DNA from: Myxococcota bacterium
Lineage (GTDB): Bacteria > Myxococcota_A > SURF-8 > G963663525
DNA: 30,235 bases
NCBI GenBank assembly: GCA_963676915.2
Contig: CAXXVK010000008.1
Location: 1 to 30,235 of the forward strand
Reading direction: 5' to 3'
Positions 4,808-28,876 of this stretch are shown here, piece by piece (position 1 is the stretch's first letter; the number at the start of each line of letters is the position of its first letter). The notes beneath the pieces are model-generated. The model had not been told where the DNA came from. It did no database searches and worked only from the letters and a program-made list of their open reading frames with translations. Made by a program: the position numbers and the translations under genes.

Positions 4808-6940
4808 TCAGACCTGCGGTCCGTTTTCCTCTCCTTTGCCGAGTACCCATTCGAGGAAGTTAACCTTCTTGGGTTCACGCTGTTCGTCTTTCGAATAGCA
4901 AATGGTTCCGCATTTGAGGCAACGCTCGGCTTCGCTTGCGATTTCTTCCTGTGTCAAGGTGAATTCCACCTCGTCATAGCTGAGAATTCGTTCTGCCGGA
5001 TCGAGTTCCTTCAAGGTTACGCGGTGGTTGTTGGATTCTACACCGTTGAGATCCGCCAGTAGCGAAACGGTCATCCGATCCGTTTGCATGTTTTTCGGAA
5101 GGGTGATTTCTTCCTCGTTCAGGAAAGAGTGAATGGCGCGGGCGGCTTTACGTCCGCTACCGATGGCGGTGACGGCCAGCAAAGGACCGGTCAGGCCATC
5201 GCCCGCCGCAAAAATCTTCGGAATTCCGGTCTGGCAGGTGTCTTCGTTAGCGTCTAAGGTATTCCAACGGGTTACCACCAAGCCACGTTCTTTGAGTTCG
5301 TCCTCTACGAACGAGGCATCTACACGCTGTCCGATGGCGGCGATAATCGCATCCAGCTCGATGAATTTCTCGGAGCCTTCTTTCGGCACAGGGCGACGAC
5401 GACCGGAAGCGTCCGGTTCGCCAAGCTCCATTTCGATGACTTCCAACCCTTTCATTCGACCGTTTTCATCGGGAACGACCTTGGTTGGAGCCGTGAGGAA
5501 CATGAAATTGATGCCTTCTTCCTGCGCGGCGTGAATTTCCACCGGGTTGGCAGGCATTTCCTTCAAGGTACGACGATAAATGATGCTGACTTCTTTGGCA
5601 CCTTCGCGCAGAGCGGAACGGGATGCGTCGATAGCCGTGTTACCACCACCGATAATCGCCACGCGGTCACCGAGATCCACTTTTTCACCTTGCTCACGTT
5701 TGGCGAGGAAGTGAATGCCGCTCCATACGCCGGGAAGATCTTCGCCTTCCACACGCATCGTCGAGTTGACCCACGCACCAACCGCTACCAGCACGGCATC
5801 GTAATCGCGTTCCAGCTCACTAAGTTGGATATCTTTACCCAAACAAACGCCGGTTTTGGCTTCTACGCCCATATCGAGAATGCATTGGATGTCCCAGTCC
5901 AAAATCCGTTTGGGAAGGCGATATTCGGGAATACCGTAACGTAGCATTCCGCCTAGATGATCCTGGTTTTCGAAAATCGTGGGGCTGTGACCTAAACGAC
6001 GGAGGAAATAAGCTGCCGTCAGTCCAGCCGGACCACCACCGACGATAGCAACGCTCTTGCCGGTATCGGGCAGGCGAGGCAGTTCGAGCGGGCCATTCTG
6101 TGTGCGTTCCCAGTCGGCGACGAAACGTTTGATGGTGTTGTGGTACACCGAATCGTCTCCAATGGTGCCACGGCGGCAACCTTCTTCACAGGGAGCCGGA
6201 CAAACACGACCGCAGACGCTCGGTAGAGGGTTACGGTCTTTGATAATGGTCAATGAGGTTTCGTAATCGCCTTTGGCGGCGGCTTCCACGTAACCCTGAA
6301 TGTCGATCTGAGCCGGGCAGAGTTGACGGCAGGGAGCGAGGCATTCATCCACCGTATTGAGGTGGGTCAGGTAGGAGGACAGAGTCTGAATCTGGATAAC
6401 GTTGTGGGGACAGACCCGCACGCAAGCACCGCAACCACGACAGGCGTCTGCGTTGAATTTCGGATAGCCGTCTTCTCCCATACGGATCGCGTCAAAAGAG
6501 CAAGCCTTTACACAAGAGCCTAATCCGAGGCAACCTTGTGTACAGTTCGAATACCCTCCGAACATGTCCGCCACGGCCTGGCAATCCATCGCTCCATCGT
6601 ACAGAAATGTACTTCCAGCTCGGCGATTGCCACCACAATAAGGTTTTGCGAGTTTGGGTTCCTGTACCGTCACGGCCACCCCCATGGCAGCACCAACGGC
6701 CTTGGCCGCATCGGGACCACCGGCCACGCAGCCGTCAACAGGCGCCTCGCCCTTGACGATTGCCTCGGCCATCGATGAACACCCCGGATACCCGCATCCA
6801 CCACAGTTCGCACCGGGCAGCGCTTCCAGAACTTCATCGATCCGGGGATCGCTTTCGACGTAAAAAACCTTCGAAGCGAAGGCCAGACCGACCGCCGCGA
6901 CGAGTCCTAAAACCACCATCAACGTTGCTGCGCCTATCAT
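4808..6940 (-). CDS. rnfB: RnfB fused to a GltD/NfnB-family FAD- and NADP(H)-dependent oxidoreductase (710 aa)
   Basis: RnfB part: N-terminal TM, LPGANCGGCGYPGC, CLGLGSCVKAC, CRGCGACVRVCP. GltD/NfnB part: APCRQLCP, NPLPSVCGRVCPAPCEEGCRR, FAD motif VGGGPAG, YGIPEYRLP, nucleotide motif IGGGNTAID...IYRRT, AAGD, C-terminal EAERCLKCG. Confidence 0.93.
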   Translation of the reverse strand: MIGAATLMVVLGLVAAVGLAFASKVFYVESDPRIDEVLEALPGANCGGCGYPGCSSMAEAIVKGEAPVDGCVAGGPDAAKAVGAAMGVAVTVQEPKLAKPYCGGNRRAGSTFLYDGAMDCQAVADMFGGYSNCTQGCLGLGSCVKACSFDAIRMGEDGYPKFNADACRGCGACVRVCPHNVIQIQTLSSYLTHLNTVDECLAPCRQLCPAQIDIQGYVEAAAKGDYETSLTIIKDRNPLPSVCGRVCPAPCEEGCRRGTIGDDSVYHNTIKRFVADWERTQNGPLELPRLPDTGKSVAIVGGGPAGLTAAYFLRRLGHSPTIFENQDHLGGMLRYGIPEYRLPKRILDWDIQCILDMGVEAKTGVCLGKDIQLSELERDYDAVLVAVGAWVNSTMRVEGEDLPGVWSGIHFLAKREQGEKVDLGDRVAIIGGGNTAIDASRSALREGAKEVSIIYRRTLKEMPANPVEIHAAQEEGINFMFLTAPTKVVPDENGRMKGLEVIEMELGEPDASGRRRPVPKEGSEKFIELDAIIAAIGQRVDASFVEDELKERGLVVTRWNTLDANEDTCQTGIPKIFAAGDGLTGPLLAVTAIGSGRKAARAIHSFLNEEEITLPKNMQTDRMTVSLLADLNGVESNNHRVTLKELDPAERILSYDEVEFTLTQEEIASEAERCLKCGTICYSKDEQREPKKVNFLEWVLGKGEENGPQV

Positions 6941-6998: not shown

Positions 6999-7571
6999 TT
7001 AAATCATTCCTTTGAACGCGAAGAAGGTCAATGACATAAATCCTGCCGTAACCAGACCAATCGCCGTTCCCTGCAGAGGAACGGGAATCGGAGCGAACTC
7101 GAAGCGTTCGCGAATACCCGCGAAAAGGATCAACGCCAGACCGAAACCAGCAGCGGAAGACATGGAAAATACAATGTTTTCCAGCGGGCCGTGTTCGGCT
7201 TTGATACTCAGAAGAGCCGCACCAAGCACCGCACAGTTCGTGGTGATAAGCGGCAAAAAGATGCCCAGCGCCTGATACATCGCAGGAACGGCCTTTCGTA
7301 AAAACATCTCGACGAGTTGGACCAATGCTGCGATGACCAGAATAAAGGCCAGTGTCCGCAAATATTCCAACTCGAAGGGAACGAGCAGGTAGTGCTCGAC
7401 CACCCAGGCGATGAACGAGGCCAGCGTCAGAATGAACAGCACAGCTCCCGCCATACCGATCGCCGTGTCCATTTTCTTCGAAACGCCGAGAAACGGACAG
7501 TTGCCGAGGAACTGAGCCAACAGAATGTTGTTGACGAAAATGGCTCCGATGATCATCAGGAAATAATCCAT
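6999..7571 (-). CDS. rnfA: Rnf electron transport complex subunit A
   Basis: NNILLAQFLGNCPFLGVS and GIFLPLITTNCAVLG with both Fe-S-ligand Cys present; hydrophobic 190 aa protein. Confidence 0.96.
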   Translation of the reverse strand: MDYFLMIIGAIFVNNILLAQFLGNCPFLGVSKKMDTAIGMAGAVLFILTLASFIAWVVEHYLLVPFELEYLRTLAFILVIAALVQLVEMFLRKAVPAMYQALGIFLPLITTNCAVLGAALLSIKAEHGPLENIVFSMSSAAGFGLALILFAGIRERFEFAPIPVPLQGTAIGLVTAGFMSLTFFAFKGMI

Positions 7572-7637: not shown

Positions 7638-8246
7638 TCAAGCTTTGGCCTTGGCGACTTTCGGACGCCCAAGGACGTTCATGACGCCAAGCATCAGTCC
7701 CAGGCAGACAAACGCGCCGGGGGCCTGTTGCATGAAAGAGAAGGCTTTGAAATCCGGTCCAAATACCGAGATTCCTAAAAACGTGCCGGCTCCAAGTACC
7801 TCACGCAATGCGCCCAATGCCGAAAGAGCAAGGGTGTAACCGATACCGATACCTAAACCATCGGCAGCGGATAACAACACGCCGTTTTTCCCGGCGAAAG
7901 CCTCAGCACGTCCCAGAATGATGCAGTTGACGACAATCAGCGGGATAAAGATGCCCAAGCTTTGAGAAAGCGAGAAGAAAAACGCCTTCATGAGAATTTC
8001 CACCGTCACGACGAAAGTCGCGATCACCACGATGTATGCGGCGATACGGACTTCCTTTGGGATCACCTTTCGCAACGCGCTGATCAGCATGTTGGACAGC
8101 GTAAGCACGAAAATGACCGATGCTCCCATGCCAATGGCGTTCTCGACGGAAGTCGTCACCGCCAGGGTCGGGCACAGTCCGAGAACCAACCGAAACGGCG
8201 GTATTTCTTTCCAGAGTCCCTTGGTAAATTCCTTAGTAAAACCCAT
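7638..8246 (-). CDS. rnfE: Rnf electron transport complex subunit E
   Basis: LGLCPTLAVT, IPKEVRI, GIFIPLIVVNCIILGRAEAFA and PGAF motifs. Confidence 0.96.
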   Translation of the reverse strand: MGFTKEFTKGLWKEIPPFRLVLGLCPTLAVTTSVENAIGMGASVIFVLTLSNMLISALRKVIPKEVRIAAYIVVIATFVVTVEILMKAFFFSLSQSLGIFIPLIVVNCIILGRAEAFAGKNGVLLSAADGLGIGIGYTLALSALGALREVLGAGTFLGISVFGPDFKAFSFMQQAPGAFVCLGLMLGVMNVLGRPKVAKAKA

Positions 8247-8266: not shown

Positions 8267-8869
8267 TTACTTGCCTTCGGTCTTGGCTTGTTTCGCGGCT
8301 TTTAGGATTTCGTCTTTATGTTCTTTGTAAAACGTCGTACCTTGGCGAAGCGCTTCACAGACGGCGCGTGACGTTACGGTCGCACCTGAAACGGCATCGA
8401 CTTGTCCGCCATCCGCTTTTACTTTGAAAACGGTATCTTTTTTCATGCCTTTGAACTGCTTCAAAAACGAATCGTTCTTGGCACGAGTTCCGACGCCGGG
8501 CGTTTCGGACATCGTCGTGATGCCGATTCCGATCAAATCGTCCGTTTTCGTGTCGAAACCGATCATGACGCCAACATCTCCGCCAAAACCTTTACCGGAG
8601 GATTCCAAAGCGATGCCGTAAATGTCCGAGCCTTTTTTGGCAGGAAACAGCAGATGCTTGTCTTTCGGTCCCAGCTTGAGTTCGCGGCGGTCGTCGAGCA
8701 GGTTGTTATCGGCATCGGCCATAACCTTTTCGACGGCAGGCATTTTCATGTTCTGCAAAATCTGAACGTCGATACGTTCTTTGGTCCCGTTGTACAATCC
8801 ACCCAGCGCAACCCCGCTGATCAGGCAGATCAAGGACAGCGAGAGGACCATGCTGACGGCTTTAGGCAT
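8267..8869 (-). CDS. rnfG: Rnf electron transport complex subunit G (FMN-binding)
   Basis: N-terminal TM, GKGFGG, SETPGVG and intact flavinylation motif DAVSGATVTS. Start moved to ATG 8869, which has an RBS GGAGAAG. Confidence 0.93.
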   Translation of the reverse strand: MPKAVSMVLSLSLICLISGVALGGLYNGTKERIDVQILQNMKMPAVEKVMADADNNLLDDRRELKLGPKDKHLLFPAKKGSDIYGIALESSGKGFGGDVGVMIGFDTKTDDLIGIGITTMSETPGVGTRAKNDSFLKQFKGMKKDTVFKVKADGGQVDAVSGATVTSRAVCEALRQGTTFYKEHKDEILKAAKQAKTEGK

Positions 8870-9719
8870 AATTCTTCTCCATGGCAATCGGCTTGGGCTG
8901 GATGCGATCGAGCAACGGGGACAACAGGTTACCCAGCAAAACGGCGAACGGTACGACTTCCATCCAGATGCCGTAAACCCGGATCATCATTACCAGGATA
9001 CCGATAATCAATCCGTACAAAAGTTGCGGCAGTTTATTGGCCGGAGAGGTGGTGTTGTCGGTGGACAGGAAGAACAGTCCCAACATGACGTGACCGGTCA
9101 GGAGTTGTTCGAAACATGGTCCGACCGTTTCGGGATATATCTGGTGGAAAATCCCACCACTGACCATCACGCCAACGAAAAAGGCCAATGGAATCCGCCA
9201 GTTGATCCAACGGAAGAGCAGCAAAAACAGTCCACCGGCGGCCACGGCATACACGGACCAGGGATGTCCCGTGCCGATGGTTTCTCCACCGATGGGAGCG
9301 AGCATTCGGGGCCAGGACAACAACAGCATCAGATAGCCGATCAACACCGGATGGAAGGCATAACATCCCAAACCGCCGAAGATCTGTTTCGCGACCACCA
9401 CAGCTAGCGCCATTCCAAGAATCACCATAAATAACGGCACGTTGGGCGGCATCAGCAGGGTAAACAGGATACCCATGAGAATCGCGTGGCCATCCAGCGC
9501 ATAAATCGGTTGTTTGAAAACGTATTGCGTCAAGGCTTCCACAAGAACGCCGGTCACTACGGCCAGCAGCAGCACCAGAAAGGCACGCGGTCCATGCTGC
9601 CACAATGCCACCAGCACGGCGGGAGCCAGCGCCAAAGCCATCATATAATGGCTTTGCACCGTTCCTGCACCCGCTCTTAGGTGAGGAGAAGGTCCGACCC
9701 TGAGTATTTTATTCGCCAT
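8862..9719 (-). CDS. rnfD: Rnf electron transport complex subunit D (short form lacking the FMN loop)
   Basis: SPHL, DGHAILMGILFTLLMPP, AKQIFGGLG..FHP, FLSTDNTTSP and FAVLLGNLLSPLLD. Only 285 aa, with no [ST]GAT motif. Confidence 0.92.
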   Translation of the reverse strand: MANKILRVGPSPHLRAGAGTVQSHYMMALALAPAVLVALWQHGPRAFLVLLLAVVTGVLVEALTQYVFKQPIYALDGHAILMGILFTLLMPPNVPLFMVILGMALAVVVAKQIFGGLGCYAFHPVLIGYLMLLLSWPRMLAPIGGETIGTGHPWSVYAVAAGGLFLLLFRWINWRIPLAFFVGVMVSGGIFHQIYPETVGPCFEQLLTGHVMLGLFFLSTDNTTSPANKLPQLLYGLIIGILVMMIRVYGIWMEVVPFAVLLGNLLSPLLDRIQPKPIAMEKNYA

Positions 9720-9780: not shown

Positions 9781-11016
9781 TTATTCGCTTTTCGCCAAAT
9801 GTTTTTTACCCATCGTGAACCACTGCTTCAACGGTCTGTAACTTGGACAGACATAAGTGCACAGGCCGCACTCGATGCAGTAATCCAGCGTTGCAACTTC
9901 TTCGTAGCGTCCGTACTCGCAATATCGCCCCATCTCCTGCGGCTGCAATCGCGCCGGACAAACGGCAGTACATGCACCGCAATTGACACAGGGTCGCGAC
10001 CGAAACTCGTCATGTTCGGCGGCGGGAATCACCGTGAGGCCGTCCATTCCAGCCAATACGGGGGTGTTGGGATCGAATTGCGCAAGTCCCGACATGGAGC
10101 CACCGAACAGCAGACGATCCCCGGATTCGTAAGCGATTCCGGCTTGCTTCAAGACATCACCGGCACGGGTTCCGACCAGAACGCAAAGGTTCTTTTTGGA
10201 ACCATCACGCCCCACGACCGTCAGATCACAGAAACGCGGCAGGACGCCTTTGGTGATAATCGAATGGAAAGCCAACGCGAGATGTACCGAAATGACGGAG
10301 ATTTCGCCGTTTCCACCTTGATTCGCCATCGCGGTCTTGATCAGGCGATCGAAGGAGGTGGGGTATTTGTCATCCAGTTCCAGAGATCCCGTACCGAGCG
10401 CTTTGAATTCGTCCGATACTGCTTTCGGCAATGCAAAGCGGATCTGGCTGGCACCGAACAGCTTTTTGACGGTTTCGGCGGCAACTTGCAACTCTTCCAG
10501 ACTTTCACGACTGCGTTGCACTCTTGCCGTCAGTCCGATGTCGATATCCGCCCCACTGATCACCAGGATATCCGCCTTCGGATTGCTTCCGTCGGCCCAG
10601 GGGAAACCGGCATCGAAGGAAAATCCGGCCAGTGTAGCCGGAAGTCCCGCCTTGCGGATCTGATCCCATAACGCTTCGGAATCATTGGATTCCACCGGAT
10701 CGATTCCGGGTTCATCCTGTTGCGCGTTTTCGGGAACGATGCGCAGCACGGGAACGGCACGCAATCCCGTGGGATAGGGAGCCACCGTGATTTCTTCGAT
10801 TTTGCCGCTCACCGGACATCGAAGCTCGTGGCCTTCTTCTCCTGCGACGACGACTCCGGCTTTGACGGTTTCGCCTTTATCGACCACTGGAGACAGAATT
10901 TCTCCATCGTTTCCAACCAGCGGGAAAAGAATCTCACCCACCAGATAGGTTTCGAAGGCCGATTTCTCGCACGAAAGGTGTAACGTTCTTTTTTTCTGCT
11001 CGCCGAACCATCCCAT
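9781..11016 (-). CDS. rnfC: Rnf electron transport complex subunit C, divergent
   Basis: Position at head of rnfCDGEAB; N-terminal VDKGETVKAG...CPVSGKI, KYP, VLVGT...GGSMSG, and two ferredoxin motifs CVNCGACTAVCP and CIECGLCTYVCP. Confidence 0.88.
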   Translation of the reverse strand: MGWFGEQKKRTLHLSCEKSAFETYLVGEILFPLVGNDGEILSPVVDKGETVKAGVVVAGEEGHELRCPVSGKIEEITVAPYPTGLRAVPVLRIVPENAQQDEPGIDPVESNDSEALWDQIRKAGLPATLAGFSFDAGFPWADGSNPKADILVISGADIDIGLTARVQRSRESLEELQVAAETVKKLFGASQIRFALPKAVSDEFKALGTGSLELDDKYPTSFDRLIKTAMANQGGNGEISVISVHLALAFHSIITKGVLPRFCDLTVVGRDGSKKNLCVLVGTRAGDVLKQAGIAYESGDRLLFGGSMSGLAQFDPNTPVLAGMDGLTVIPAAEHDEFRSRPCVNCGACTAVCPARLQPQEMGRYCEYGRYEEVATLDYCIECGLCTYVCPSYRPLKQWFTMGKKHLAKSE

Positions 11017-11069: not shown

Positions 11070-12926
11070 TTACAGGGGCAACGCCTCGGCATCGTTCATG
11101 TTTTCGTAAACCGGAAGTCCGAATTCCTCGTGACAGCCCGCACACAGCGTCTTACGCACATCCTTGTAGGCCGGAAGTCCCAGACCCTCCCGCATATGGC
11201 AGGCTCCGCAATGGCCGGGATCGACGGAAGACGGACGGCAATCGTCCACGCTGTGGCTTTCGTCGCATTCCATGACTTTGGGAAGCTGACGCAAACGCGA
11301 TTGGACGTTTTCGGGCTGTTTCATATTGTGGTGACAGTCCATGCAGGGGAAGCCCGCCTGATCGACGTGCACCCGGTGGACCGCAGTGGCATCTCTGCCA
11401 AGTGCCGACGCTGTGGGTAACGATTTCTGCACGATGGAAGTCAGAAGTCGCGTTTCCGCCTCGTCTTTCTCGCCGGATTCCAGGGTACGTTTCGCACGTT
11501 CCCTCTGAGCGAGAGCCTCTTTGCGGGCCTGCGGATAGGCATGACATCCACGGCAGGTCTGCGGTCCCTGCTTGCGTTCTGTGTGACAGTCCTGACAGAC
11601 TTTGTGCAAGGCGTTTTCCATCGCCAGCGGATTGTGTTTTTCGAGGAACAGCTTGTTGGTCGATGCGAAATCGCCGCTCACAGGATCGATGTGGCAGGCT
11701 TCGCAGGTTTCGACTTTCAGCTTTTCTTCGTCGATTTGTTCGTGACATTTCGCGCAAAGTTCGTGTGAAACCTGTTTTAATTCCACAGCGCTTTTCACCG
11801 TGTGGTCCAGGTGACATTCACGGCAGCTACGTTTTTGTTCGCGATCAGCGTCTTCATGGTGACAATGCTGGCAATCCACACCAGCGCCGATGGCGTGGGC
11901 ATCGTGTGTCCAGTTAACCATTCCGAAACTTGCAGGATGCGAATGCGCCGCTTCACGGTGACAGTCGTTGCAAGTAACGGGCATGTCAGAATCGAGGTCC
12001 GGGTTGTCGAAATCGTGGCAATCGAAACAGCGCGAATGCAGGGCGGTTTTCCGTGCCGGAACGGCTTTTCCGGACTTGGTGCGTCCTACGGTGGCTTTAT
12101 GACATTCGCCGCAACGTCTATATTCCTGCGGATTCGCTTTGTCGTCTTCCATATGATGGCAAGTTCGGCAAGTGTAGTCCTTGCCGTCGTAATCCATATA
12201 TTCCAGGTGATGTGCACGATGATCCCAGGCGACTTCACCGGAAAAACCTTTGAATAACGGATCGTGATTGAAAGCGGTTTCGTTTTCCGTTTCGCGGTGA
12301 ATCACGCCGTCATGGCATTCGTCGCATCGGTCCCATTCGCCATCGGCGGGCAGTTCCGTAGGTTGACCTTCGATGTGGCAACGAACGCAGGCAATGGTCT
12401 GTTCCCAAGCATAATGACGGTGTTCGAGAGGTGTTGCACCTCCATCGGAGAGCATTTTGGACTGGTGGCAGTCCCGGCACTGGGTCGGACCTTCGCCTAC
12501 GGCTTGGTGACATCCCGCGCATTTTTTATGAAACGCGACGCGACGGTCTGCGGGCAGGTGCGCGCTTTCAACATCCTTGCCGTGTTCCTTGGCCCAGTCG
12601 GCATAGTCGCTTTTCCGCTCGGTTTCTTCCATTTTAGCATTCGGCTTGGCAGGAAACACAGAGTCTCCAAGCACCCGATGCTTGTGGCAATCCGAGCAGG
12701 CTTGCATGTCGCTGTCACCGGTTTTCGAGGTGTGGTGGCAGACTTGGCAGTTGGCGACGGCTTCCCGAGCGTGCAATGTATGACTCCACGGGACATCGCC
12801 GAAACGGTTGGCCAGAGTCTCATCTGAATCATCGGATGCGAGGAGACTGGCTCCCAACGCACTTAGAAACAGAAAGACGCAAATGACGGACAACCAGAAG
12901 AGCTGGTAGGTTTTGATCGGTTTCAA
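11070..12926 (-). CDS. Periplasmic class III (c3-type) multiheme cytochrome c with 19 CxxCH motifs, Rnf-associated
   Basis: Signal peptide MKPIKTYQLFWLSVICVFLFLSALGASLLA; 19 CxxCH counted by hand; repeated c3 motifs GxVxWxHxxH...CxxCHH; TTG start with GGAG RBS. Confidence 0.92.
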   Translation of the reverse strand: MKPIKTYQLFWLSVICVFLFLSALGASLLASDDSDETLANRFGDVPWSHTLHAREAVANCQVCHHTSKTGDSDMQACSDCHKHRVLGDSVFPAKPNAKMEETERKSDYADWAKEHGKDVESAHLPADRRVAFHKKCAGCHQAVGEGPTQCRDCHQSKMLSDGGATPLEHRHYAWEQTIACVRCHIEGQPTELPADGEWDRCDECHDGVIHRETENETAFNHDPLFKGFSGEVAWDHRAHHLEYMDYDGKDYTCRTCHHMEDDKANPQEYRRCGECHKATVGRTKSGKAVPARKTALHSRCFDCHDFDNPDLDSDMPVTCNDCHREAAHSHPASFGMVNWTHDAHAIGAGVDCQHCHHEDADREQKRSCRECHLDHTVKSAVELKQVSHELCAKCHEQIDEEKLKVETCEACHIDPVSGDFASTNKLFLEKHNPLAMENALHKVCQDCHTERKQGPQTCRGCHAYPQARKEALAQRERAKRTLESGEKDEAETRLLTSIVQKSLPTASALGRDATAVHRVHVDQAGFPCMDCHHNMKQPENVQSRLRQLPKVMECDESHSVDDCRPSSVDPGHCGACHMREGLGLPAYKDVRKTLCAGCHEEFGLPVYENMNDAEALPL

Positions 12927-13141: not shown

Positions 13142-14314
13142 TCAGTGATGATCCGCGTAATCAGGATGATCGTAGAAAATCGGCATGTGTGTCACGATGA
13201 ATTTGAAGGCCAACACGCCCGCCGTTATGAGGAACAGCGTGGTGCAAATCTCCATCCAGTGCGGGACATACCGTTCATCGGCTGGCAGGTTGTAGTTGAA
13301 AGCAATCAACGACACGTTGAGCCGATTGAAAACGATACCCAACACGGTGATCAGCGCGGTAACGCGAATCAGCGTGAGGTTCTTTTCACGTCGTCCGATA
13401 GCATACAAGAACGACGGCAGCGCTACAAAGCCAAGCAGTTCGACCAGGAACAGATGTCCATAAGGTGTATTGAGCAGGTGCCATTCGTTGTCCAGCGCGA
13501 TACCGATGACTTTCAGTGCGAAATATCCGGCCAACACCCAGGACGCCGCCTTGGCAAAGCCCAACGTGACTTCATCGAATTCTTGGTGATGATGGTGATC
13601 GATGCGGTCTTTGTAGAAATGATGCGACAATGCACCCTCGAACATCACCATCGAAAGACCTGCCGCGATACTCGAAATAAAGAAGTACAGTGGCAAATAA
13701 GGCGAATACCAGAGCGGATGTAGTTTCGTTGGAGCGATCAGGTACATGGCCCCTAGTGAAGATTGGTGCAACGTGGAGAGAATCACGCCGAAAATCGTCA
13801 GCACGATGGTCAGTTTCACGATGAGGTTGCGCAGTTTCTTGAATCCGAGCCATTCGAGCGGCGCCGGGCTGAATTCGAGGAACAATACCGTCAGGTACAA
13901 TGCCACGCAGGCAGCTACTTCGAACATAATCGATGTAGGACCGGCCTGAATGATGAAAGGATACGGCAAACGCCAGGGGCGACCGACATCGTACAGCAAA
14001 GCGATCGGCACCAGGGCATAGCCCAAAAAGCCTGTCAGAATCGCAGGACGTACGGCGGAATGGTACTTTTTCATACCGAAAATATAGACACCCGCCGACG
14101 TGGTGTAGCCACCTGCGGCGAGCGCAACGCCGGTAAGCAGGTCGAAGCCGATCCACAATCCCCATGGGTTGTTGCTGTCGAGGTTCGTCACTGCGCTGAG
14201 TCCAAGGCCGAAACGCATAGCGGTCAGCACCAATCCAAGAAGGATGATGAGTCCGGCCACGATGTTGAACGGCGTGAAAATCGTGCTTTTCTGGGTCGGG
14301 TTTACTACGGCCAT
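13142..14314 (-). CDS. hmcC: HmcC, NrfD/HybB-family integral membrane subunit
   Basis: RFGLGLSAVTNL...PWGLWIGFDLLTGVALAAGG, DVGRPWRLPYP, SIMFEV, LSTLHQSSLG, KLHPLW; about 10 TM segments. Confidence 0.93.
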   Translation of the reverse strand: MAVVNPTQKSTIFTPFNIVAGLIILLGLVLTAMRFGLGLSAVTNLDSNNPWGLWIGFDLLTGVALAAGGYTTSAGVYIFGMKKYHSAVRPAILTGFLGYALVPIALLYDVGRPWRLPYPFIIQAGPTSIMFEVAACVALYLTVLFLEFSPAPLEWLGFKKLRNLIVKLTIVLTIFGVILSTLHQSSLGAMYLIAPTKLHPLWYSPYLPLYFFISSIAAGLSMVMFEGALSHHFYKDRIDHHHHQEFDEVTLGFAKAASWVLAGYFALKVIGIALDNEWHLLNTPYGHLFLVELLGFVALPSFLYAIGRREKNLTLIRVTALITVLGIVFNRLNVSLIAFNYNLPADERYVPHWMEICTTLFLITAGVLAFKFIVTHMPIFYDHPDYADHH

Positions 14315-15381
14315 TACACGTTCTCCTTAGCCTGTTCCTTGAACTTGGCTTCAGCTTCCGTTACCGCCTTCTTGACCGCCTTGGCCGTTTCGGATTCGGC
14401 GCGTTTCTTGGCTTTTTCCAGTTCCTGTTTCAGTTTTTCCTCGCCTTTGCCTTGGGTTTCGGCAACAGCTTTGGCAACGGCTTCTCGCTGTTCTTTGGCG
14501 GCGATTTTCTCTTTTCGCTTATTGATGGCATAGACGCCGGTCAGCAGAACCGGCCATGCTCCGACAACCGCCGGAACCACAGCCAAAGCACCACCGGTCA
14601 ATTCGGACGGCGGATGGTGAGGAACGTTCATCGGCAGGTTGATCTGGTCGAAAGGAACGCCCGACAAAAACAGCCAGTTCGTTCCGGACAGTTCGTTTTC
14701 GCCGTAAATATGGTCGATGTAGCGATCCGGGTGCTTTTTGATGCGTTCGCGTGCGATTTTCAACAAGTCTTCACGTGTGCCGAACGTCAGGGCTTCCATC
14801 GGGCAGGCTTCCACACAGCCGGGTTTGAGTCCCTTTTTGATGCGCGGATGACACATCGTACAACGGACCACCACCGGATCGAAAGCACTGTCATAGGCAT
14901 AGGCGGGCATACTCCAGGGGCAGGCCAGCAAGCAATAACGACATCCTACGCAGACGTCAGGGTTGTAAAGGACCGCGCCTTCGGGAGTTTTTGTAAAGGC
15001 GTTGACGAAACAGGCCGAAGCGCAGGCGGGTTCCTGACAATGATGACATTGTTGTTTACGGAACACCGGACCGTAACCGGGAACTTCGTACTGATTCACG
15101 ACGGTAAACACATTCGTTTTCGTTCGTCGTTTCTTTTTCAGCACCGTCAGATCGTCGAATGGTACATCCGGTTTCGGTTGCTTGTTGACTTCGTTGCAAG
15201 CCGCCTCGCAGGATCGGCATCCTACGCAAAGCGTGGTATCGTGCAACACGCCATACGCCCCCGGATAGCCCTCGTAATGCTTGTGTTGGGCCAGGGCTTT
15301 TTTGCTTCCGACGGTCGCGGCGGCGGTTCCGGCACCTGCCGCCGTGAGAAACTTCAGGAATTTCCTGCGCGATACTGACAT
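14314..15381 (-). CDS. hmcB: HmcB, Tat-exported 4x[4Fe-4S] protein with C-terminal TM helix and coiled-coil tail
   Basis: Tat motif SRRKFLK; [43 protein letters not shown]...PGCVEACP; HIYGENE; TM helix then Lys/Ala/Glu-rich tail. Confidence 0.93.
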
Positions 15382-15413
15382 GAGGGAATCCTCCTGGTTC
15401 GTGTCAGGTTCGG

Positions 15414-17006
15414 TTAATGTACCGCGGCTTCCGACTTTTCGTTATGGCACTGCACGCAGTTCATCGGTTGAGCGATGTCCATTTGTTCGTGACAGCCGAT
15501 ACATTGCTGATGATAAGCGCCTTTCAGTCCTGGACCGAAGAGGTTTTCCTCGCTACGGCCATCTTTGTCATGACAATTCACGCACATCGGCGGTTTTTGT
15601 CCGACCGGAGAGTGGTGATGACATCCGGCGCAGAGAGTATCCTCACCGCCATGGAAGAACTTCGCCATACGGCTGCCGTTGATTCCTTTTCGCAGAGCTT
15701 CGATAATTTGCCGATGCGGGAATACCGAAGGTCCGTACTTGTTTTCAAGGATATCGATTGTCACTTCATTGGGAATTTCGTTCGAAGCGAACGTAAACGC
15801 CTGATAAGGAGCCTGTTCGGGATTGTAATCCGCCATGACGGATTTTTAACAGGTTGCTGCTCGCCGTTTTCTTCGGCTGTTTCCGCTGGTGTTTCAGTGG
15901 TAGGCGGTTCGAAGTGGCATTTCGTGCAGGCATTGTCAGGCAACCGGGCAAAACTCATGAACATGTGGGCACCCGGCGCATTCTTTTTCTTTTTTGTATT
16001 TGTTGTGGCATCCGACGCAGCTTTGCTCGGCGGAGAAGGCATGGAAAGCTGTTTCGAGATTGGCCTTTTTGCCTTTGTAATTTCCTTTGATCGTATGGCA
16101 TTCGTTGCAAGCACGCATCGTGTCGTGATGGCAATCCCGGCAACGCCCGGTATAACGCTCATGTCCCTTATGATTGAAAGGTACGGGGAGCATTCTGGTA
16201 TGGTCTTTGTCTTTTTCGGAAGGAGTCAGCCACGCAACGTCCGGTTGCTCGCCGCTCAGACGCAGTCGAGGAGTGCGAGCCAGTTTCTTGATTTTGGAAA
16301 TATTTTCCGCTTTGTGGCACCCGGCGCAATTGATAGGACCGCTGGAAAGGTTCTGTGACGCTCGGTTCATGTGGCAGGTTACACAAGCCCAGTGAGAAGC
16401 GGTTTTCATCGAAGCCGGTTGGCCTTTTCCACCCGCCTCGTGGCAGTCGCGACAGTTGGACTCGGTTCCTTTTTTGTAGGAAATTCCCTGGCTTGCGTCA
16501 TCGTAGCTGTGGTGGCACTTGCCGCAATCGGAATTCATTTCCTTAATGTGTCGAGCGTGCAGAGATAAATCCATAGGCATCAGTACGCGGTTGGACGTGT
16601 ATTCCGGTTGAACGGCATGGCATTCACCACAAACGACAGGTCCGCTTTCCTTGCCTTGGGCTTTGAGTTCCTTATGGCAGCCTTGGCAATTCGAGTGGAA
16701 ATGATCCATCATCGACTCTTTGTCGGGACCGTCTTTGAGACGCAGGAATTTTTGAGAAAGATACTTTTCGCCCTGTTTGTGACAGGTTTGGCAGTTTTTC
16801 CCCAATTTTTCCAGGGCTTCAGTGTGCTGGTCGTGACCGAACTGCACCGTCGGGCGTTCGAGATCGCCGAATTGCTTCAACGTATCGATCGTCAGCAGAT
16901 CCCAACGTTCGTCTCCGTCATCGTCGGCCCAACAAATGCCTACAGATAGACTTAGAAGCATAAGAACCAGTCCCAACCTGCCTGCCATGTAAACCTTTTC
17001 CCGCAT
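15414..17006 (-). CDS. hmcA: HmcA high-molecular-weight 16-heme cytochrome c (two compensating frameshifts, at ~15968 and ~15845)
   Basis: Joining ORFs 15936-17024, 15761-16162 and 15414-15836 gives 16 CxxCH (the 11th, CAGCH, is restored by removing the extra C), with signal peptide, [27 protein letters not shown] and [10 protein letters not shown]. Start ATG 17006 or 16988. Confidence 0.9.
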
Positions 17007-17273
17007 AGTACTTACCCTGCACAAGGTTGATGTCCGTTTTCCGCATAGTTCGCAAAAACGAACCGTTGCATGACTTTCACGTACTCATCGATAGGGTCAT
17101 AAACAATTTTCGCGATAAAATACAGAAAGGCGAAATCCATCAAGAGGTTTCGTTACAATCGAACGAACCTATAGGACAACGGCCCCCCTGTTTACCGCTG
17201 GAATGTCTTTATTCAGTTTATAATCCTCAGAACACAGTTTCGTGACCTATCAACGTCATCGTTTGCCGTGAAA

Positions 17274-17310
17274 AGTCTCTTTGAAATACCACGTCATGTC
17301 AAGGTATTTC
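17274..17310 (-). promoter_or_regulatory. Putative promoter/operator of the hmc-rnf operon
   Basis: Minus-strand TTGACA (17302-17297), 17-nt spacer, weak -10 GAGACT; the -35 is enclosed by the inverted repeat GAAATACC-N12-GGTATTTC (17283-17310). Confidence 0.35.
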
Positions 17311-17717
17311 CGTTTTTTCGCAGTCTATTGAAATTATAAAGGAAAGATACAGTAAAAACCAATAAAAACAAGTGGATAGGTGAAAAAAAGTGTGTGTTTC
17401 TGTGTAAAATTGTCCTGTTTTTTTTCGAAAATCGGCAAAAAAAACGGCAAGTGCAATTTTCTTAAAAAAATAAGACAGGCCGTACAATTAAAGGTCATCC
17501 AAATATAATATTTGCTATCCAACCTCTCTTGTTGTTTTGCAACTTGCCGATCTTTTGGACCCGATTTTTCCATTCGATTTTTCTTAATGTGGTTTATTCC
17601 TTTTTAATAAAACTTACAAACCAGGATGGCGAGATCGTTTTTATTGGAACAAAATTATTTCTCTGTAAACGGATTTACTATGAACTCTCGACTTTTGTGT
17701 TTCCGACATAAAAGGAA

Positions 17718-17746
17718 TTGACTCTAAACGACGCCTGCACTAGTAT
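17718..17746 (+). promoter_or_regulatory. Putative sigma70 promoter of epimerase gene
   Basis: TTGACT-N17-TAGTAT, 34 nt upstream of ATG 17780. Confidence 0.55.
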
Positions 17747-17779
17747 CCCCCGCATGTTGAAACCGATTGATGGAAGGTT

Positions 17780-21284: not shown

Positions 21285-21302
21285 ATCAATAAATACAAGT
21301 GG

Positions 21303-21671
21303 TTAGGGACTCGTAACAGCTGATTTATTGGCGGAAGGGTCGGGGATGTAAACCACTTCGCCATTGGGGAGGCGATAGGCGACTCCCAGCCTTTTTCCAC
21401 TGCCGCCGACTTCCTCTTCCGTCATGCGCAGACGTTCAATTTTGACGCCTTTTTTCATGATGATTTCCATATTGGCTTTTCCCGGATTCTTCACGATGGC
21501 GAAATCGTCGGGAGAAGCGAGCAATTCGGGAACGCTTAACGCGGTGAACATCGCAAGAATCAGCGCTACGGCGAAAACCATGGCGACATCGAACAGATTG
21601 GCCACTGCGCCCAAGGGATCTTCCTCCGGTGCTCCCAGTAGATTTCGGTAGCGGCGCGGCGCATGGTTCAT
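21303..21671 (-). CDS. DUF2149 family membrane protein (HmuV-like)
   Basis: EEDPLGAVANLFDVAMVFAV...KNPG..MEII.KKG...GKRLGVAYRLPNGEVVYIP. Start moved to ATG 21671, which forms an ATGA overlap with the upstream stop. Confidence 0.88.
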   Translation of the reverse strand: MNHAPRRYRNLLGAPEEDPLGAVANLFDVAMVFAVALILAMFTALSVPELLASPDDFAIVKNPGKANMEIIMKKGVKIERLRMTEEEVGGSGKRLGVAYRLPNGEVVYIPDPSANKSAVTSP

Positions 21672-26286: not shown

Positions 26287-26364
26287 AAGACCCCGATTTC
26301 GTTGTATTTACCTCACTGCCCGCATAGCGAACAGTGAGGTTTGTATTTGGCTTGGTACCTATTG

Positions 26365-28569: not shown

Positions 28570-28876
28570 AATAACTCCTGTAAAAAATAATTTGGAGCGA
28601 CTGCAATTAGTTCGCCTTTTTCTTAAGGACTGCACGGTGGAATGTCGAATTAATTTTCGTTAATTTAGGATATTGAAAAGATAAAAATAGCCGTGAAAAA
28701 GCAGAGAATAACTAGTGCTTATAATGAGTTAAGAAAAACTTCCACAAAGTCGATTGAAACGGAGCTAAACAAATTTTAACAATTCTTCCATGTGCAAAAC
28801 AGGAGGTGGAAAAAGTCTCTTTGTTGTGGGGAATTTTCTTTCGAAAATTCTTGCATCGATGAGAATAATTTGCGCG

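What the first reader, a model, noticed from the sequence alone, without database searches (positions are those of the whole stretch)
4808..6940. RnfB fused to a full GltD/NfnB-type flavoprotein with an NADP(H)-type binding motif
Seen: ~190 aa RnfB followed by ~520 aa with an Fe-S domain (CGRVCPAPCE), FAD motif GGGPAG, YGIPEYRLP, GGGNTA and YRRT. The EAxRCLxC segment is at the C-terminus, not at the N-terminus as in GltD/NfnB. Established: GxGxxA plus basic RR indicates NADP(H) preference; NfnB carries a bifurcating FAD. Inference: the pyridine-nucleotide site has moved from RnfC to the RnfB end. Bifurcation is possible but unproven, and no nfnA is in the locus. Long RnfB variants are known from some sulfate reducers.
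Basis: partly seen in the sequence, partly recalled or inferred. Interest (0 to 1): 0.7.

Follow-up and report, generated by a model that had tools for sequence, protein, structure and literature searches.

The report
Known Rnf2-type RnfB–NADPH flavoprotein fusion
The gene is a real fusion of the membrane redox-pump subunit RnfB with an NADPH-binding flavoprotein; this design is already described in sulfate reducers as "Rnf2", is found here in an uncultured sulfite-reductase-bearing myxobacterial lineage, and has never been tested biochemically.

Summary
One uninterrupted 710-aa ORF lies on the minus strand at 4808-6940. It joins RnfB (residues 1-190) to a GltD/NfnL-like module with Fe-S clusters, FAD and an NADP(H) site. 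It is the last gene of a cytochrome-rnfCDGEA-B operon.

The design is already published as the "Desulfobacula toluolica Tol2-type" or "Rnf2" complex: a large RnfB with a nucleotide site, plus an RnfC without its NADH domains. This scan has found it at least a dozen times on other DNA.

- The module falls in one clade with the non-bifurcating NADPH modules of StnC/NfnA. It has their Lys cluster ligand (K271, 120 of 120), not the Glu of NfnB.
- The "EAxRCLxC" tail is the N-terminal segment of GltD/NfnB moved to the C-terminus, a circular permutation shared with StnC/NfnA.
- The partner RnfC lacks the FMN/NADH motifs in 19 of 19 operons.
- RnfD lacks the FMN-attachment threonine in 18 of 20.
- The RnfA/E [2Fe-2S] ligands and the RnfG flavin site are kept.

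The most likely function is a non-bifurcating NADP(H) port feeding the ion-pumping core and periplasmic cytochromes. This is untested. It is a new member of a known kind.

The parts
4808..6940 (-). rnfB fused to a GltD/NfnL-like NADP(H)-FAD-Fe-S module; 710 aa plus stop
6851..6940 (-). N-terminal membrane-anchor helix (residues 1-30)
   Evidence: Hydrophobic stretch in the translation. Helix 2-25 in the AF2 model. Aligns to the TM helix region of the RnfB chains 9eri_B and 7zc6_B.
6725..6820 (-). RnfB FdI-type [4Fe-4S] motif (residues 41-72; C46, C49, C54, C71)
   Evidence: PF04060, E 3.5e-14. These Cys are kept in 119-120 of 120 family members.
6392..6538 (-). RnfB FdII 2x[4Fe-4S] domain (residues 135-183; with C133, eight Cys: C133, C137, C143, C147, C167, C170, C173, C177)
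   Evidence: Fer4 family hits. All eight Cys are kept in 120 of 120. Aligns to 9eri_B and 7zc6_B only up to residue 184-190; their further ferredoxin domains have no counterpart here.
6098..6340 (-). Fe-S domain of the GltD-like module (residues 201-281). Proximal cluster by homology: C208, C247, C251 and K271 (nt 6128-6130). C204 and C255 are assigned to the distal cluster.
   Evidence: PF14691, E 1.1e-22. The alignment to 9bov_A puts C208/C247/C251/K271 on Cys108/Cys147/Cys151/Lys170. That ligand set is given in PMC11829005. Lys at this site in 120 of 120.
5153..6055 (-). FAD and NADP(H) Rossmann domains (residues 296-596). GGGPAG at nt 6023-6040, GGGNTA at nt 5633-5650, Y455-R456-R457 at nt 5570-5578, R341 equivalent to StnC R239.
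   Evidence: PF07992, E 1.4e-33. Motif positions. YRR and R341 invariant in 120 of 120.
4889..5008 (-). C-terminal tail (residues 645-684) with E670, R673, C674, C677, C681: the permuted N-terminal segment of GltD/NfnB
   Evidence: A profile of this tail hits the N-terminus of 18 of 18 NfnB/GltD proteins at 16.0-28.3 bits; the best of 360 shuffles scores 6.9. The tail is shared with 34 of 34 NuoG-linked and 27 of 27 short-tailed relatives and is absent from 9 of 9 NfnB and 8 of 8 GltD. C200 and position 678 covary.
6999..7571 (-). rnfA
   Evidence: PF02508, E 1.5e-57. TIGR01943 257 bits, above its cut-off. C25 and C113, the [2Fe-2S] ligands in A. woodii, are present.
7638..8246 (-). rnfE
   Evidence: PF02508, E 5.6e-64. 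TIGR01948 234 bits, above its cut-off. C25 and C108 are present.
8267..8887 (-). rnfG with the flavinylation motif SGAT at residues 167-170
   Evidence: NF045876 (RnfG_DVU2794) 222.6 bits against a cut-off of 205. Motif located.
8862..9719 (-). rnfD, short form (285 aa). The linker that carries the covalent-FMN threonine in canonical RnfD is deleted.
   Evidence: PF03116, E 3.7e-69. TIGR01946 197 bits against a cut-off of 207, in two stretches. The PDB alignment breaks between 141 and 155, against 141 and 190 of 9eri_D. Alignments.
9781..11016 (-). rnfC variant (411 aa): FMN/NADH motifs lost, C-terminal 2x[4Fe-4S] domain kept
   Evidence: No Complex1_51K or SLBB hit. TIGR01945 161.8 bits against a cut-off of 246. 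Motif columns. Two CxxCxxCxxxC motifs.
11070..12926 (-). membrane-anchored multihaem cytochrome c with 19 CxxCH motifs, directly upstream of rnfC
   Evidence: PF02085 and related families. Haem-motif count. Homologues lie next to rnfC in 3 relatives.
13142..17024 (-). Upstream on the same strand: hmcC-like (13142-14314), hmcB-like (14314-15381) and a 10-haem HmcA-like cytochrome (15936-17024). Possibly linked to the Rnf2 operon; membership is uncertain.
   Evidence: NF045714 HmcC 653.7 bits against a cut-off of 550. NF045715 HmcB 482.4 against 420. NF045713 HmcA 345 against 400, below cut-off. The adjacency is seen only in the same-genus genome.

Best explanation
The ORF encodes the cytoplasmic electron-input/output subunit of an Rnf2-type ('Tol2-type') Rnf complex.

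Shown by sequence:
- A membrane-anchored RnfB core (one FdI cluster plus a 2x[4Fe-4S] FdII domain) is fused to a circularly permuted GltD/NfnL-like module.
- That module has FAD and NADP(H) sites and two [4Fe-4S] clusters.
- The cluster next to the FAD has a Lys ligand, as in the non-bifurcating NADPH modules of StnC/NfnA.

Inferred mechanism:
1. NADPH gives a hydride to the FAD.
2. Single electrons run through the two clusters of the module into the RnfB clusters.
3. They reach the membrane [2Fe-2S] of RnfA/E, where Na+/H+ translocation is coupled.
4. They then pass to the periplasmic FMN of RnfG.
5. From RnfG they most likely leave to multihaem cytochromes c. Here these would be a 19-haem protein, with an HmcABC-like quinone-linked module next door.
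6. They do not return through RnfD/RnfC to NAD+, because RnfC has no FMN/NADH site and RnfD has lost its covalent-FMN site.

The reaction would be reversible: NADPH to the cytochrome pool with ion export, or cytochrome to NADP+ driven by the ion gradient. The FAD is not bifurcating. In layout the complex resembles Na+-NQR, with nucleotide input on the RnfB/NqrF side.
For: Architecture and family:
-.
- The nearest solved chains are NfnA 9bov_A (445 bits, residues 198-683), NfnA 9n5u_A (433) and StnC 8oh5_C (402). NfnB 4ylf_B scores 333 and GltD 222.
- Foldseek gives the same order on the AF2 model, which has pLDDT 76.

Trees:
- The 21 RnfB-linked modules form one clade. FastTree support is 99 on 111 rows. 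IQ-TREE SH-aLRT is 99.8 on a 61-row subset.
- This clade is sister (support 97) to 44 NuoG-linked and short-tailed relatives. NfnB (TIGR01316) lies outside, and GltD is the outgroup.

Diagnostic residues:
- Position 271 is Lys in 21 of 21 fused and 34 of 34 NuoG-linked modules, and Glu in 9 of 9 NfnB and 8 of 8 GltD. It is Lys in 120 of 120 family members.
- Passages of PMC10482914 and PMC11829005 state that this FAD is non-bifurcating and feeds a linear cluster chain.
- YRR is kept in 120 of 120. It is the 2'-phosphate site (PMC7596348).

Rest of the complex:
- RnfC next to a fused RnfB lacks GxGGAxFP and ECEP in 19 of 19 full-length cases. It scores below the Complex1_51K cut-off in 5 of 5 scanned. 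The genome's second, canonical RnfC scores 170-173 bits.
- RnfD: the threonine-bearing linker is deleted in 8 of 20, has no Thr at the site in 10 of 20, and is ambiguous in 2 of 20. The site is T156 in A. woodii and T153 in C. tetanomorphum.
- Kept: RnfA C25 (20 of 21) and C113 (21 of 21), and RnfE C25 and C108 (21 of 21 each). These are the [2Fe-2S] ligands and the ion-coupling site in A. woodii. The RnfG [ST]GA[ST] motif is kept in 16 of 18.

Cytochromes:
- A multihaem cytochrome gene lies within about 3.7 kb upstream of rnfC in 12 of 16 loci with enough flank.
- Ferredoxin-type domains beyond FdII, present in 9eri_B and 7zc6_B, have no counterpart here.
Against: - No activity, cofactor or structure has ever been measured for any Rnf2-type complex. 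The papers I read say this themselves.
- RnfC keeps both CxxCxxCxxxC motifs in 20 of 20 cases. This argues that it still carries electrons to or from some cytoplasmic partner.
- The riboflavin-binding Asp of RnfD (A. woodii D249) is kept as D or E in all 21, so the RnfD path may survive with a non-covalent flavin.
- 3 of 16 loci (L109, L110, L111) show no multihaem gene in 16-19 kb, and one more (L112) is ambiguous. The HmcABC-like neighbour is seen only in the same genus.
- The Desulfobacteraceae literature describes Rnf2 as linking the NADH, ferredoxin and NADP pools (PMC11887813, passage). It does not describe a cytochrome reductase.
- The cluster ligand assignments are by homology only. 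The tools give no model coordinates.
Confidence: 0.5

Rival explanations
1. Full-loop NADPH:X oxidoreductase. NADPH enters at the fused RnfB. Electrons cross via RnfA/E and RnfG, return through RnfD (non-covalent flavin or riboflavin) to the two [4Fe-4S] clusters of RnfC, and reduce an unidentified cytoplasmic acceptor of higher potential, for example a thiol/disulfide carrier of the sulfite-reduction pathway. The cytochrome is then a side branch.
For: - RnfC keeps both cluster motifs in 20 of 20.
- The RnfD riboflavin Asp/Glu is kept in 21 of 21.
- The genome has DsrAB.
- 3 of 16 loci have no nearby cytochrome gene.
Against: - The threonine that holds FMN in RnfD is missing in 18 of 20. In A. 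woodii this FMN is the step between RnfG and riboflavin.
- No candidate acceptor gene is conserved next to the operon.
Confidence: 0.22
2. Ferredoxin:NADP+ oxidoreductase with swapped ends. Ferredoxin docks on the ferredoxin-like domain of RnfC, or still on RnfB, and NADP(H) reacts at the fused module. Rnf2 would then simply be an NADP-specific Rnf.
For: - The literature describes Rnf2 as linking the ferredoxin and nicotinamide pools (PMC11887813, passage).
- The RnfC dicluster domain is intact.
- The RnfB FdI and FdII domains are retained.
Against: - In A. woodii, ion export is coupled to electron flow from RnfB to the RnfA/E cluster to RnfG. With ferredoxin on the RnfC side, the exergonic direction would run against that polarity. 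This is inference.
- The genome already has a canonical Rnf with an intact RnfC on contig C33.
- The RnfD FMN site is lost.
- The ferredoxin-type domains of RnfB beyond FdII are replaced.
Confidence: 0.12
3. Flavin-based bifurcation at the fused FAD, as in NfnB. NADPH oxidation sends one electron down the Rnf chain and one to a low-potential acceptor.
For: - The fold and FAD-site residues are shared with NfnB/NfnL, including the Arg equivalent to T. maritima R201 (R341, 120 of 120).
Against: - Lys, not Glu, ligates the cluster next to the FAD.
- The module groups with StnC/NfnA, whose FAD is described as non-bifurcating and terminal.
- There is no NfnA/NfnS-type partner in the window.
- Only one Fe-S chain leaves the FAD.
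Confidence: 0.06

Closest known systems
Rnf2 / 'Desulfobacula toluolica Tol2-type' Rnf complex. Sources: Doerries et al. 2016, PMC5109826, section 23 read; it cites Woehlbrand et al. 2016, Proteomics 16:973, not read. Also PMC11887813, passages.
   Same: - RnfB of about 700 aa with a nucleotide-binding module.
- RnfC without the NADH-oxidoreductase and SLBB domains.
- A cytochrome c gene in the cluster.
- A second, A. woodii-type rnf operon in the same genome.
- Gene order rnfCDGEAB.
   Different: - Only 47-51% identical to the Desulfosarcina, Desulfobacteraceae and Pseudodesulfovibrio proteins.
- The host is an uncultured DsrAB-bearing lineage whose RpoB is closest to records labelled Myxococcales.
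- The cytochrome has 19 haem motifs, against 5-10 in the other operons examined.
- RnfD carries a linker deletion of about 46 columns shared within its order.
- HmcABC-like genes lie directly upstream.
Canonical Rnf: A. woodii 9ERI, C. tetanomorphum 7ZC6, A. vinelandii 8AHX
   Same: - Subunits A, E, G and D.
- The N-terminal 190 residues of RnfB.
- [2Fe-2S] ligands RnfA C25/C113 and RnfE C25/C108.
- The RnfG flavinylation motif.
   Different: - There is no FMN/NADH site in RnfC.
- There is no FMN threonine in RnfD.
- The ferredoxin-type domains of RnfB after FdII are replaced by an NADP(H)-FAD module.
- A cytochrome c gene is attached.
GltD/NfnL-like NADPH module of StnC (8OH5) and of NfnA in Bfu-type NfnABC (9BOV, 9N5U)
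   Same: - About 42% identity over residues 198-683.
- Lys ligand of the cluster next to the FAD.
- YRR motif and the Arg equivalent to StnC R239.
- C-x3-C-x3-C-P first motif.
- Permuted E-x3-C-x2-C tail.
- Sister clades in the trees.
   Different: - There is no N-terminal [2Fe-2S] domain.
- There is no NuoG/Fdh-like C-terminal domain.
- There are no HydB/HydC-like partner genes in the window.
- The tail has C-x2-C-x3-C, with the third Cys (C681) in 20 of the 20 fused rows that reach it, instead of C-x2-C-x-C.
NfnB/NfnL of bifurcating NfnAB (4YLF, 5JCA) and GltD
   Same: - The fold.
- The FAD and NADPH motifs.
- Two [4Fe-4S] clusters.
   Different: - Those proteins have Glu, not Lys, at the position of K271.
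- Their CxxC segment is N-terminal, not C-terminal.
- The ORF's TIGR01316 score is 349 against a cut-off of 472, and its TIGR01317 score is 234 against 448.
- There is no NfnA partner.
Na+-NQR input subunit NqrF (functional analogy only; not homologous to the fused module)
   Same: - A membrane-anchored Fe-S flavoprotein that takes NAD(P)H on the RnfB/NqrF side of the shared A/E-G-D core (position stated in PMC9588780, passage).
- The analogy was also drawn in PMC11434368.
   Different: - A different fold: NqrF is a ferredoxin-NADP-reductase-type protein. This is recalled, not tested here.
- NQR reduces quinone. The acceptor here is unknown.
Cytochrome-linked Rnf of Methanosarcina acetivorans (Rnf plus MmcA)
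   Same: A multihaem cytochrome c is encoded with rnf and is thought to carry electrons away from the complex (PMC12174285, passage; 10.1101/2021.01.07.425746, passage).
   Different: - The donor there is ferredoxin, through an ordinary RnfB.
- There is no NADPH module.

Membership tests
Rnf2 / Tol2-type Rnf complex | RnfB of about 700 aa carrying a nicotinamide-nucleotide-binding domain in addition to the RnfB Fe-S domains | tested here: met
   The protein is 710 aa. It has PF04060 plus a Fer4 dicluster plus PF14691 plus PF07992. The definition is taken from PMC5109826, section 23.
Rnf2 / Tol2-type Rnf complex | RnfC lacking the NADH-ubiquinone oxidoreductase (Complex1_51K) and SLBB domains | tested here: met
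   Neither domain is hit at E<=10. A genome-wide PF01512 search hits contigs C33, C72 and C60 but not the window. The motif columns are degenerate.
Rnf2 / Tol2-type Rnf complex | Cytochrome c gene in the rnf cluster | tested here: met
   A 19-CxxCH cytochrome ends 54 nt upstream of rnfC on the same strand.
RnfB (subunit B of RnfABCDGE) | N-terminal membrane helix, CxxCxxxxC...C FdI motif and 2x[4Fe-4S] domain; last gene of rnfCDGEAB | tested here: met
   TIGR01944 scores 88.7 bits against a cut-off of 68.7. Residues 7-190 align to 9eri_B and 7zc6_B. Synteny holds in all 20 comparison loci as far as each contig reaches; four are cut short.
Bfu-type NfnA / StnC | Lys-ligated cluster next to the FAD, and an NADPH-type YRR site | tested here: met
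   K271 aligns to Lys170 of 9bov_A. Lys and YRR are each present in 120 of 120.
Bfu-type NfnA / StnC | N-terminal [2Fe-2S] domain, NuoG/Fdh-like C-terminal domain, and HydB/HydC-like partner subunits | tested here: not met
   The ORF ends 20 aa after the aligned region, whereas those proteins continue for 340-850 aa. There is no Complex1_51K gene in the window. The protein is therefore related to this family but not a member.
NfnB/NfnL (NfnAB, bifurcating) | Glu ligand of the proximal cluster, N-terminal CxxC pair, family score above cut-off, adjacent NfnA | tested here: not met
   Lys replaces Glu. The CxxC pair is at the C-terminus. TIGR01316 scores 349.3 against a cut-off of 471.75. The NfnA-type domain is found only on C49 and C68.
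GltD (glutamate synthase small subunit) | Family score above cut-off | tested here: not met
   TIGR01317 scores 233.6 against a cut-off of 447.7, and TIGR01318 scores 301.7 against 482.95. GltD is the outgroup in the trees.
DsrL | C-terminal 2x[4Fe-4S] ferredoxin domain and linkage to dsr genes | not tested
   No DsrL reference sequence was available for the tree. The window holds no dsr genes among the ORFs scanned. DsrAB lie on contig C53.

The most novel reading that the evidence does not exclude
Rnf2-type complexes are not ferredoxin:NAD+ pumps at all. They would be an independently evolved analogue of Na+-NQR.
- NADPH enters through a permuted, non-bifurcating StnC-like module fused to RnfB.
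- The ion is pumped at the intact RnfA/E [2Fe-2S] site.
- Electrons leave on the periplasmic side, from the RnfG flavin into multihaem cytochromes. Here these would be a 19-haem wire next to an HmcABC-like quinone module.
- RnfD, which has lost its covalent FMN, and RnfC, which has lost FMN and NADH, have become a vestigial or re-purposed branch.
- The four otherwise unassigned conserved cysteines (C102, C120, C200 or C678, C681) would form an extra bridging cluster between the RnfB core and the fused module.
Probability: 0.3. Interest if true: 0.7.

Novelty: new member of a known kind. Interest (0 to 1): 0.3.

Why it matters
Rnf2 is reported as part of the core genome of Desulfobacteraceae and as abundantly and constitutively produced there (PMC11887813, passages). 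These bacteria are reported to oxidise a large share of seabed organic carbon. Yet its substrates and direction are unknown.

If NADP(H) and periplasmic cytochromes are its partners, energy budgets for complete-oxidising sulfate reducers, and for this Dsr-bearing myxobacterial lineage, need a Na+/H+-coupled NADPH:cytochrome step.

The sequence-level results here turn the open question into specific, testable predictions:
- the Lys ligand of the non-bifurcating type
- the permuted CxxC tail
- loss of the FMN threonine in RnfD
- the intact RnfA/E cluster

The results also flag an annotation trap. The fused gene is named only 'FAD-dependent oxidoreductase' and has been read as 'loss of rnfB' (PMC11434368).

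Tried and rejected
Literature
- A search for 'RnfB' + 'glutamate synthase' + 'fusion' returned one irrelevant paper.
- 'Circular permutation' together with NfnB or glutamate synthase: none of the 10 listed papers holds the phrase. I therefore found no printed description of the permutation in this library. This does not prove there is none.
- The 2025 RNF/NQR review holds none of the words NADPH, fused, fusion, Desulfo or glutamate synthase.
- The supplement of PMC11887813 that treats Rnf2 (Supplementary Text, fig. S18) could not be read because the file was too large. It may already contain some of the RnfB/RnfC comparisons made here.
- Woehlbrand et al. 2016 is not in the library. I know it only through Doerries 2016.
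- The texts of the StnC/NfnA papers that I could search do not state the ligands of the cluster next to the tail (A6/C6 or A3/C5).

Structure
- The AF2 model is given without coordinates, so Cys-Cys distances could not be checked. This covers the tail against the first motif and a possible C102/C120/C200/C681 cluster.
- Residues 90-117, 128-136 and 679-710 have pLDDT below 50.

Expression
- No RNA holder was listed for the stretch. All runs laid were contigs, so nothing can be said about transcripts.

Phylogeny
- No DsrL or SudA reference sequences were at hand.
- Six rows were dropped before tree building because they were shorter than 380 aa or contained a stop: L041, L047, L065, L068, L086 and L127.
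- The IQ-TREE run used 61 of 111 rows.

Ideas considered and rejected
- The cytochrome as an obligatory subunit. Rejected as a firm claim, because L109, L110 and L111 show no multihaem ORF in 16-19 kb.
- An HmcABC link as a general feature. Rejected, because the adjacency is seen only in the same genus.
- A canonical NfnAB in this genome. Not found: no TIGR01316 hit above cut-off. The assembly is 90.8% complete, and the same-genus genome has one.


Full report
THE OBSERVATION

The finding's coordinates delimit one ORF on the minus strand, 4808..6940. It has an ATG start, 710 aa and no internal stop.

Pfam finds the following:
- the RnfB Fe-S motif PF04060 at 41-72
- a 2x[4Fe-4S] domain at 135-183
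- Fer4_20 at 201-281
- Pyr_redox_2 at 296-596

NCBIfam NF009410 passes its cut-off (530 bits against 516) over residues 196-684. The RnfB models match residues 3-210.

The fusion is real:
- The 120 best-scoring protein clusters in the large protein collection, query included, are 650-740 aa long. The 119 others are 51-76% identical to the query. All carry the flavoprotein domains, and 119 of 120 carry the RnfB Cys motif.
- 15 of 400 other genomes sampled from the same phylum encode it in one open frame.
- Contigs of a run from a second study tile the gene at about 95-97% identity without any insertion or deletion. Two contigs cross the domain junction.

THE SURROUNDINGS

On the same strand, upstream to downstream, the window holds:
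- a 10-haem HmcA-like cytochrome (15936-17024)
- hmcB-like (14314-15381) and hmcC-like (13142-14314) genes, both above their NCBIfam cut-offs
- a membrane-anchored cytochrome with 19 CxxCH motifs (11070-12926)
- rnfC (9781-11016), rnfD (8862-9719), rnfG (8267-8887), rnfE (7638-8246) and rnfA (6999-7571)
- the fused rnfB

These assignments rest.

The genome is 5.18 Mb in 74 contigs and 90.8% complete; the window is the whole of contig C8. It also has a second, canonical rnf operon on contig C33. That operon has ApbE, an RnfC with Complex1_51K at 170-173 bits, and an ordinary 302-aa RnfB. The genome encodes DsrA above the family cut-off, with DsrB beside it. Its RpoB is at most 77% identical to any cluster apart from one near-identical one at 98%. 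The closest named records are labelled Myxococcales, Myxococcaceae, Haliangium or Deltaproteobacteria.

IT IS ALREADY KNOWN

Doerries et al. [quoted passage not shown] They cite Woehlbrand et al. 2016 (Proteomics 16:973, not read).
- In D. toluolica Tol2, RnfB has about 700 aa and 'contains NAD+-binding sites'.
- They name the D. multivorans copy Rnf2, note a cytochrome gene in the cluster, and say the mechanism 'awaits experimental verification'.

Other papers, read as passages:
- PMC11887813 lists Rnf2 in the Desulfobacteraceae core genome and reports it as constitutively abundant.
- PMC11434368 saw the same gene in Desulfovibrionaceae but read it as 'loss of the rnfB gene' with 'an FAD-dependent oxidoreductase' in its place.

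Earlier agents of this scan reached the same 'known Rnf2' verdict on at least a dozen other genomes.

WHICH KIND OF FLAVOPROTEIN MODULE

By sequence, the nearest solved chains are:
- NfnA of Caldicellulosiruptor NfnABC, 9bov_A, 445 bits over residues 198-683
- NfnA of Thermococcus, 9n5u_A, 433 bits
- StnC of Sporomusa, 8oh5_C, 402 bits
- well behind them, NfnB 4ylf_B (333), NfnL 5jca_L (318) and GltD (222)

Foldseek on the AF2 model (pLDDT 76.1, pTM 0.71) gives the same order.

I built trees from the module sequences of:
- 20 fused genes, plus one same-order gene (L110) whose match starts only at residue 76 in the tblastn comparison
- 34 relatives with a long NuoG/Fdh-like C-terminal part
- 27 relatives with a short C-terminal extension
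- 12 others
- 9 NfnB (TIGR01316 above cut-off)
- 8 GltD (TIGR01317 above cut-off)

Six short or interrupted rows were dropped first. FastTree on all 111 rows puts the 21 RnfB-linked modules in one clade (support 99). That clade is sister (97) to 44 NuoG-linked and short-tailed relatives, with NfnB outside and GltD as outgroup. IQ-TREE on a 61-row subset gives the same clade with SH-aLRT 99.8. In this sample the fusion therefore arose once, from the StnC/NfnA-like lineage and not from NfnB or GltD.

DIAGNOSTIC RESIDUES

- In Csac NfnA the cluster next to the FAD is ligated by Cys108, Cys147, Cys151 and Lys170. In NfnB the fourth ligand is Glu. Both the StnC and the NfnABC papers treat this as a key difference between the non-bifurcating and the bifurcating FAD.
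- The window protein aligns C208, C247, C251 and K271 to those four positions.
- Position 271 is Lys in 21 of 21 fused and 34 of 34 NuoG-linked modules. It is Glu in 9 of 9 NfnB and 8 of 8 GltD. It is Lys in 120 of 120 family members.
- Y455-R456-R457 is kept in 120 of 120. In T. maritima NfnB, YRR holds the 2'-phosphate, and its presence tracks NADP(H) use in DsrL (PMC7596348).
- The module is therefore best read as an NADP(H)-specific, non-bifurcating electron port. That remains inference from relatives.

THE C-TERMINAL TAIL

A profile built from residues 645-684 of 30 family members hits the N-terminus of all 18 NfnB and GltD proteins, directly in front of their core, at 16.0-28.3 bits. The best of 360 shuffled controls scores 6.9.
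- E670, R673, C674 and C677 are shared with 34 of 34 NuoG-linked and 27 of 27 short-tailed relatives. They are absent from NfnB and GltD, whose ORFs end 1-17 aa after the core.
- The segment that supplies the first CxxC pair of the distal cluster in NfnB (Cys39 and Cys42 in T. maritima) has thus been moved to the C-terminus. This is a circular permutation, and it predates the fusion to RnfB.
- A covariation supports contact between the tail and the first motif. 117 of 120 family members have C200 and G678. The three that lack C200 (A or S) all have Cys at 678, in at least two separate lineages.
- C681 is present in all 20 fused rows that reach that far, but in only 5 of 34 NuoG-linked relatives at the aligned column.
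- C102 and C120 are kept in 120 of 120. They lie in the RnfB segment which, in C. tetanomorphum, supplies two Cys to a fifth cluster.
- Whether C102, C120, C200 and C681 form such a bridging cluster could not be tested, because no coordinates are available.

THE REST OF THE COMPLEX

I compared the window with 20 other operons that carry a fused rnfB: 15 from genomes of the same phylum and 5 named records.
- Gene order rnfC-D-G-E-A-B holds wherever the contig reaches.
- RnfC: 0 of 19 full-length proteins keep GxGGAxFP or ECEP. All 20, including one fragment, keep two CxxCxxCxxxC motifs.
- RnfD: the FMN is bound to T156 in A. woodii and T153 in C. tetanomorphum. That linker is deleted in 8 of 20 (the window, its order, and two more). 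It has no Thr at the aligned site in 10 of 20. It is ambiguous in 2 of 20. The riboflavin-binding Asp is kept as D or E in all. The Asn is His in the window.
- RnfG keeps [ST]GA[ST] at the expected place in 16 of 18.
- RnfA C25 (20 of 21) and C113 (21 of 21), and RnfE C25 and C108 (21 of 21 each), are kept. These are exactly the [2Fe-2S] ligands at which Na+ pumping is coupled in A. woodii, whose authors find RnfD 'only involved in electron transfer'.
- A multihaem cytochrome ORF lies within about 3.7 kb upstream of rnfC in 12 of 16 loci with enough flank. Three loci have none in 16-19 kb, and one is ambiguous.

HOW IT MOST LIKELY WORKS

The best-supported reading runs as follows. NADP(H) reacts at the fused module. 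Electrons pass one at a time through the module's two clusters and the RnfB clusters to the RnfA/E [2Fe-2S], where ion translocation is coupled. They then reach the RnfG flavin in the periplasm, where multihaem cytochromes take them on. Here that would be the 19-haem protein, with an HmcABC-like module as a possible route to menaquinone.

Shown by sequence:
- the domains, motifs and phylogenetic position
- the losses in RnfC and RnfD
- the retention of the RnfA/E and RnfG sites

Inferred:
- the nucleotide specificity
- the absence of bifurcation
- the exit through cytochromes
- the direction of flow

The main rival is that the two intact clusters of RnfC still pass electrons to an unknown cytoplasmic acceptor. 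A ferredoxin:NADP+ enzyme with swapped ends runs against the polarity of ion coupling described for A. woodii. Bifurcation at the FAD runs against the Lys ligand and the single outgoing chain.

VERDICT

What is particular to this window:
- the host lineage: Dsr-bearing, with RpoB closest to Myxococcales-labelled records
- the 19-haem cytochrome
- the hmcABC-like neighbours
- the shortened RnfD

What I did not find in print in the library searched, bearing in mind that the unread supplement of PMC11887813 and Woehlbrand 2016 may bear on this:
- the Lys-type assignment of the module
- the permuted tail and its covariation
- the family-wide loss of the RnfD threonine

Noticed in passing
window 13142-17024 (minus strand): An hmcA-like cytochrome with 10 CxxCH (HmcA model 345 bits, below the cut-off of 400), hmcB (482 against 420) and hmcC (654 against 550) lie directly upstream of the 19-haem cytochrome and the rnf genes. 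No hmcDEF was seen in the window. The adjacency is shared with the same-genus genome only.
   Followed up: partly
window 11070-12926 (minus strand): A 618-aa membrane-anchored cytochrome with 19 CxxCH motifs. Homologues at 41-42% identity, also with 19 motifs, are divergently transcribed next to rnfC in two same-order genomes (L107, L108).
   Followed up: partly
window 8862-9719; loci L106-L111, L119: RnfD is about 35-46 residues shorter than usual, because the periplasmic linker that carries the covalent-FMN threonine is deleted. In other Rnf2-type operons the linker is present but mostly lacks the threonine.
   Followed up: yes
G000 contig C33, about 20200-27400 (loci L005, L006, L009, L144): A second, canonical rnf operon in the same genome: ApbE, RnfC with Complex1_51K and SLBB, RnfD with a TTAT flavinylation motif, and a 302-aa RnfB.
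   Followed up: partly
G000 contigs C19:52476, C64:31865, C73:65999 (L002-L004): Three further paralogues of the permuted GltD-like module. Their frames are open for 645, 596 and 1512 aa. The last runs to the end of the fetched locus and has a long C-terminal part.
   Followed up: no
L110 (G012:C1, about 15690-18032): In one same-order genome the match to the fused RnfB starts only at residue 74-76, about 500 nt after rnfA. This could be a frameshift, a truncated N-terminus or an assembly error.
   Followed up: no
G000 contig C53:41538-43780 (L140, L141): DsrA (568 bits, above cut-off) with DsrB beside it, in a genome whose RpoB is closest to records labelled Myxococcales.
   Followed up: partly
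window 21668-28635 (minus strand): A TonB-dependent receptor (756 aa), a CobN/Mg-chelatase-like protein (1341 aa) and a MotA/ExbB-family protein sit in a row. This is possibly a metal or corrinoid uptake and chelation cluster.
   Followed up: no
window 3219-4124 (minus strand): A 301-aa ORF matches only the middle of MMPL/HAE3 transporter models (profile positions 106-316 of 333). It may be a fragment.
   Followed up: no
public annotation (PMC11434368): The fused gene is named 'FAD-dependent oxidoreductase' or 'formate dehydrogenase beta subunit' in the source records. One paper therefore reports 'loss of rnfB' in Desulfovibrionaceae, where the RnfB part is in fact present in the same ORF.
   Followed up: yes
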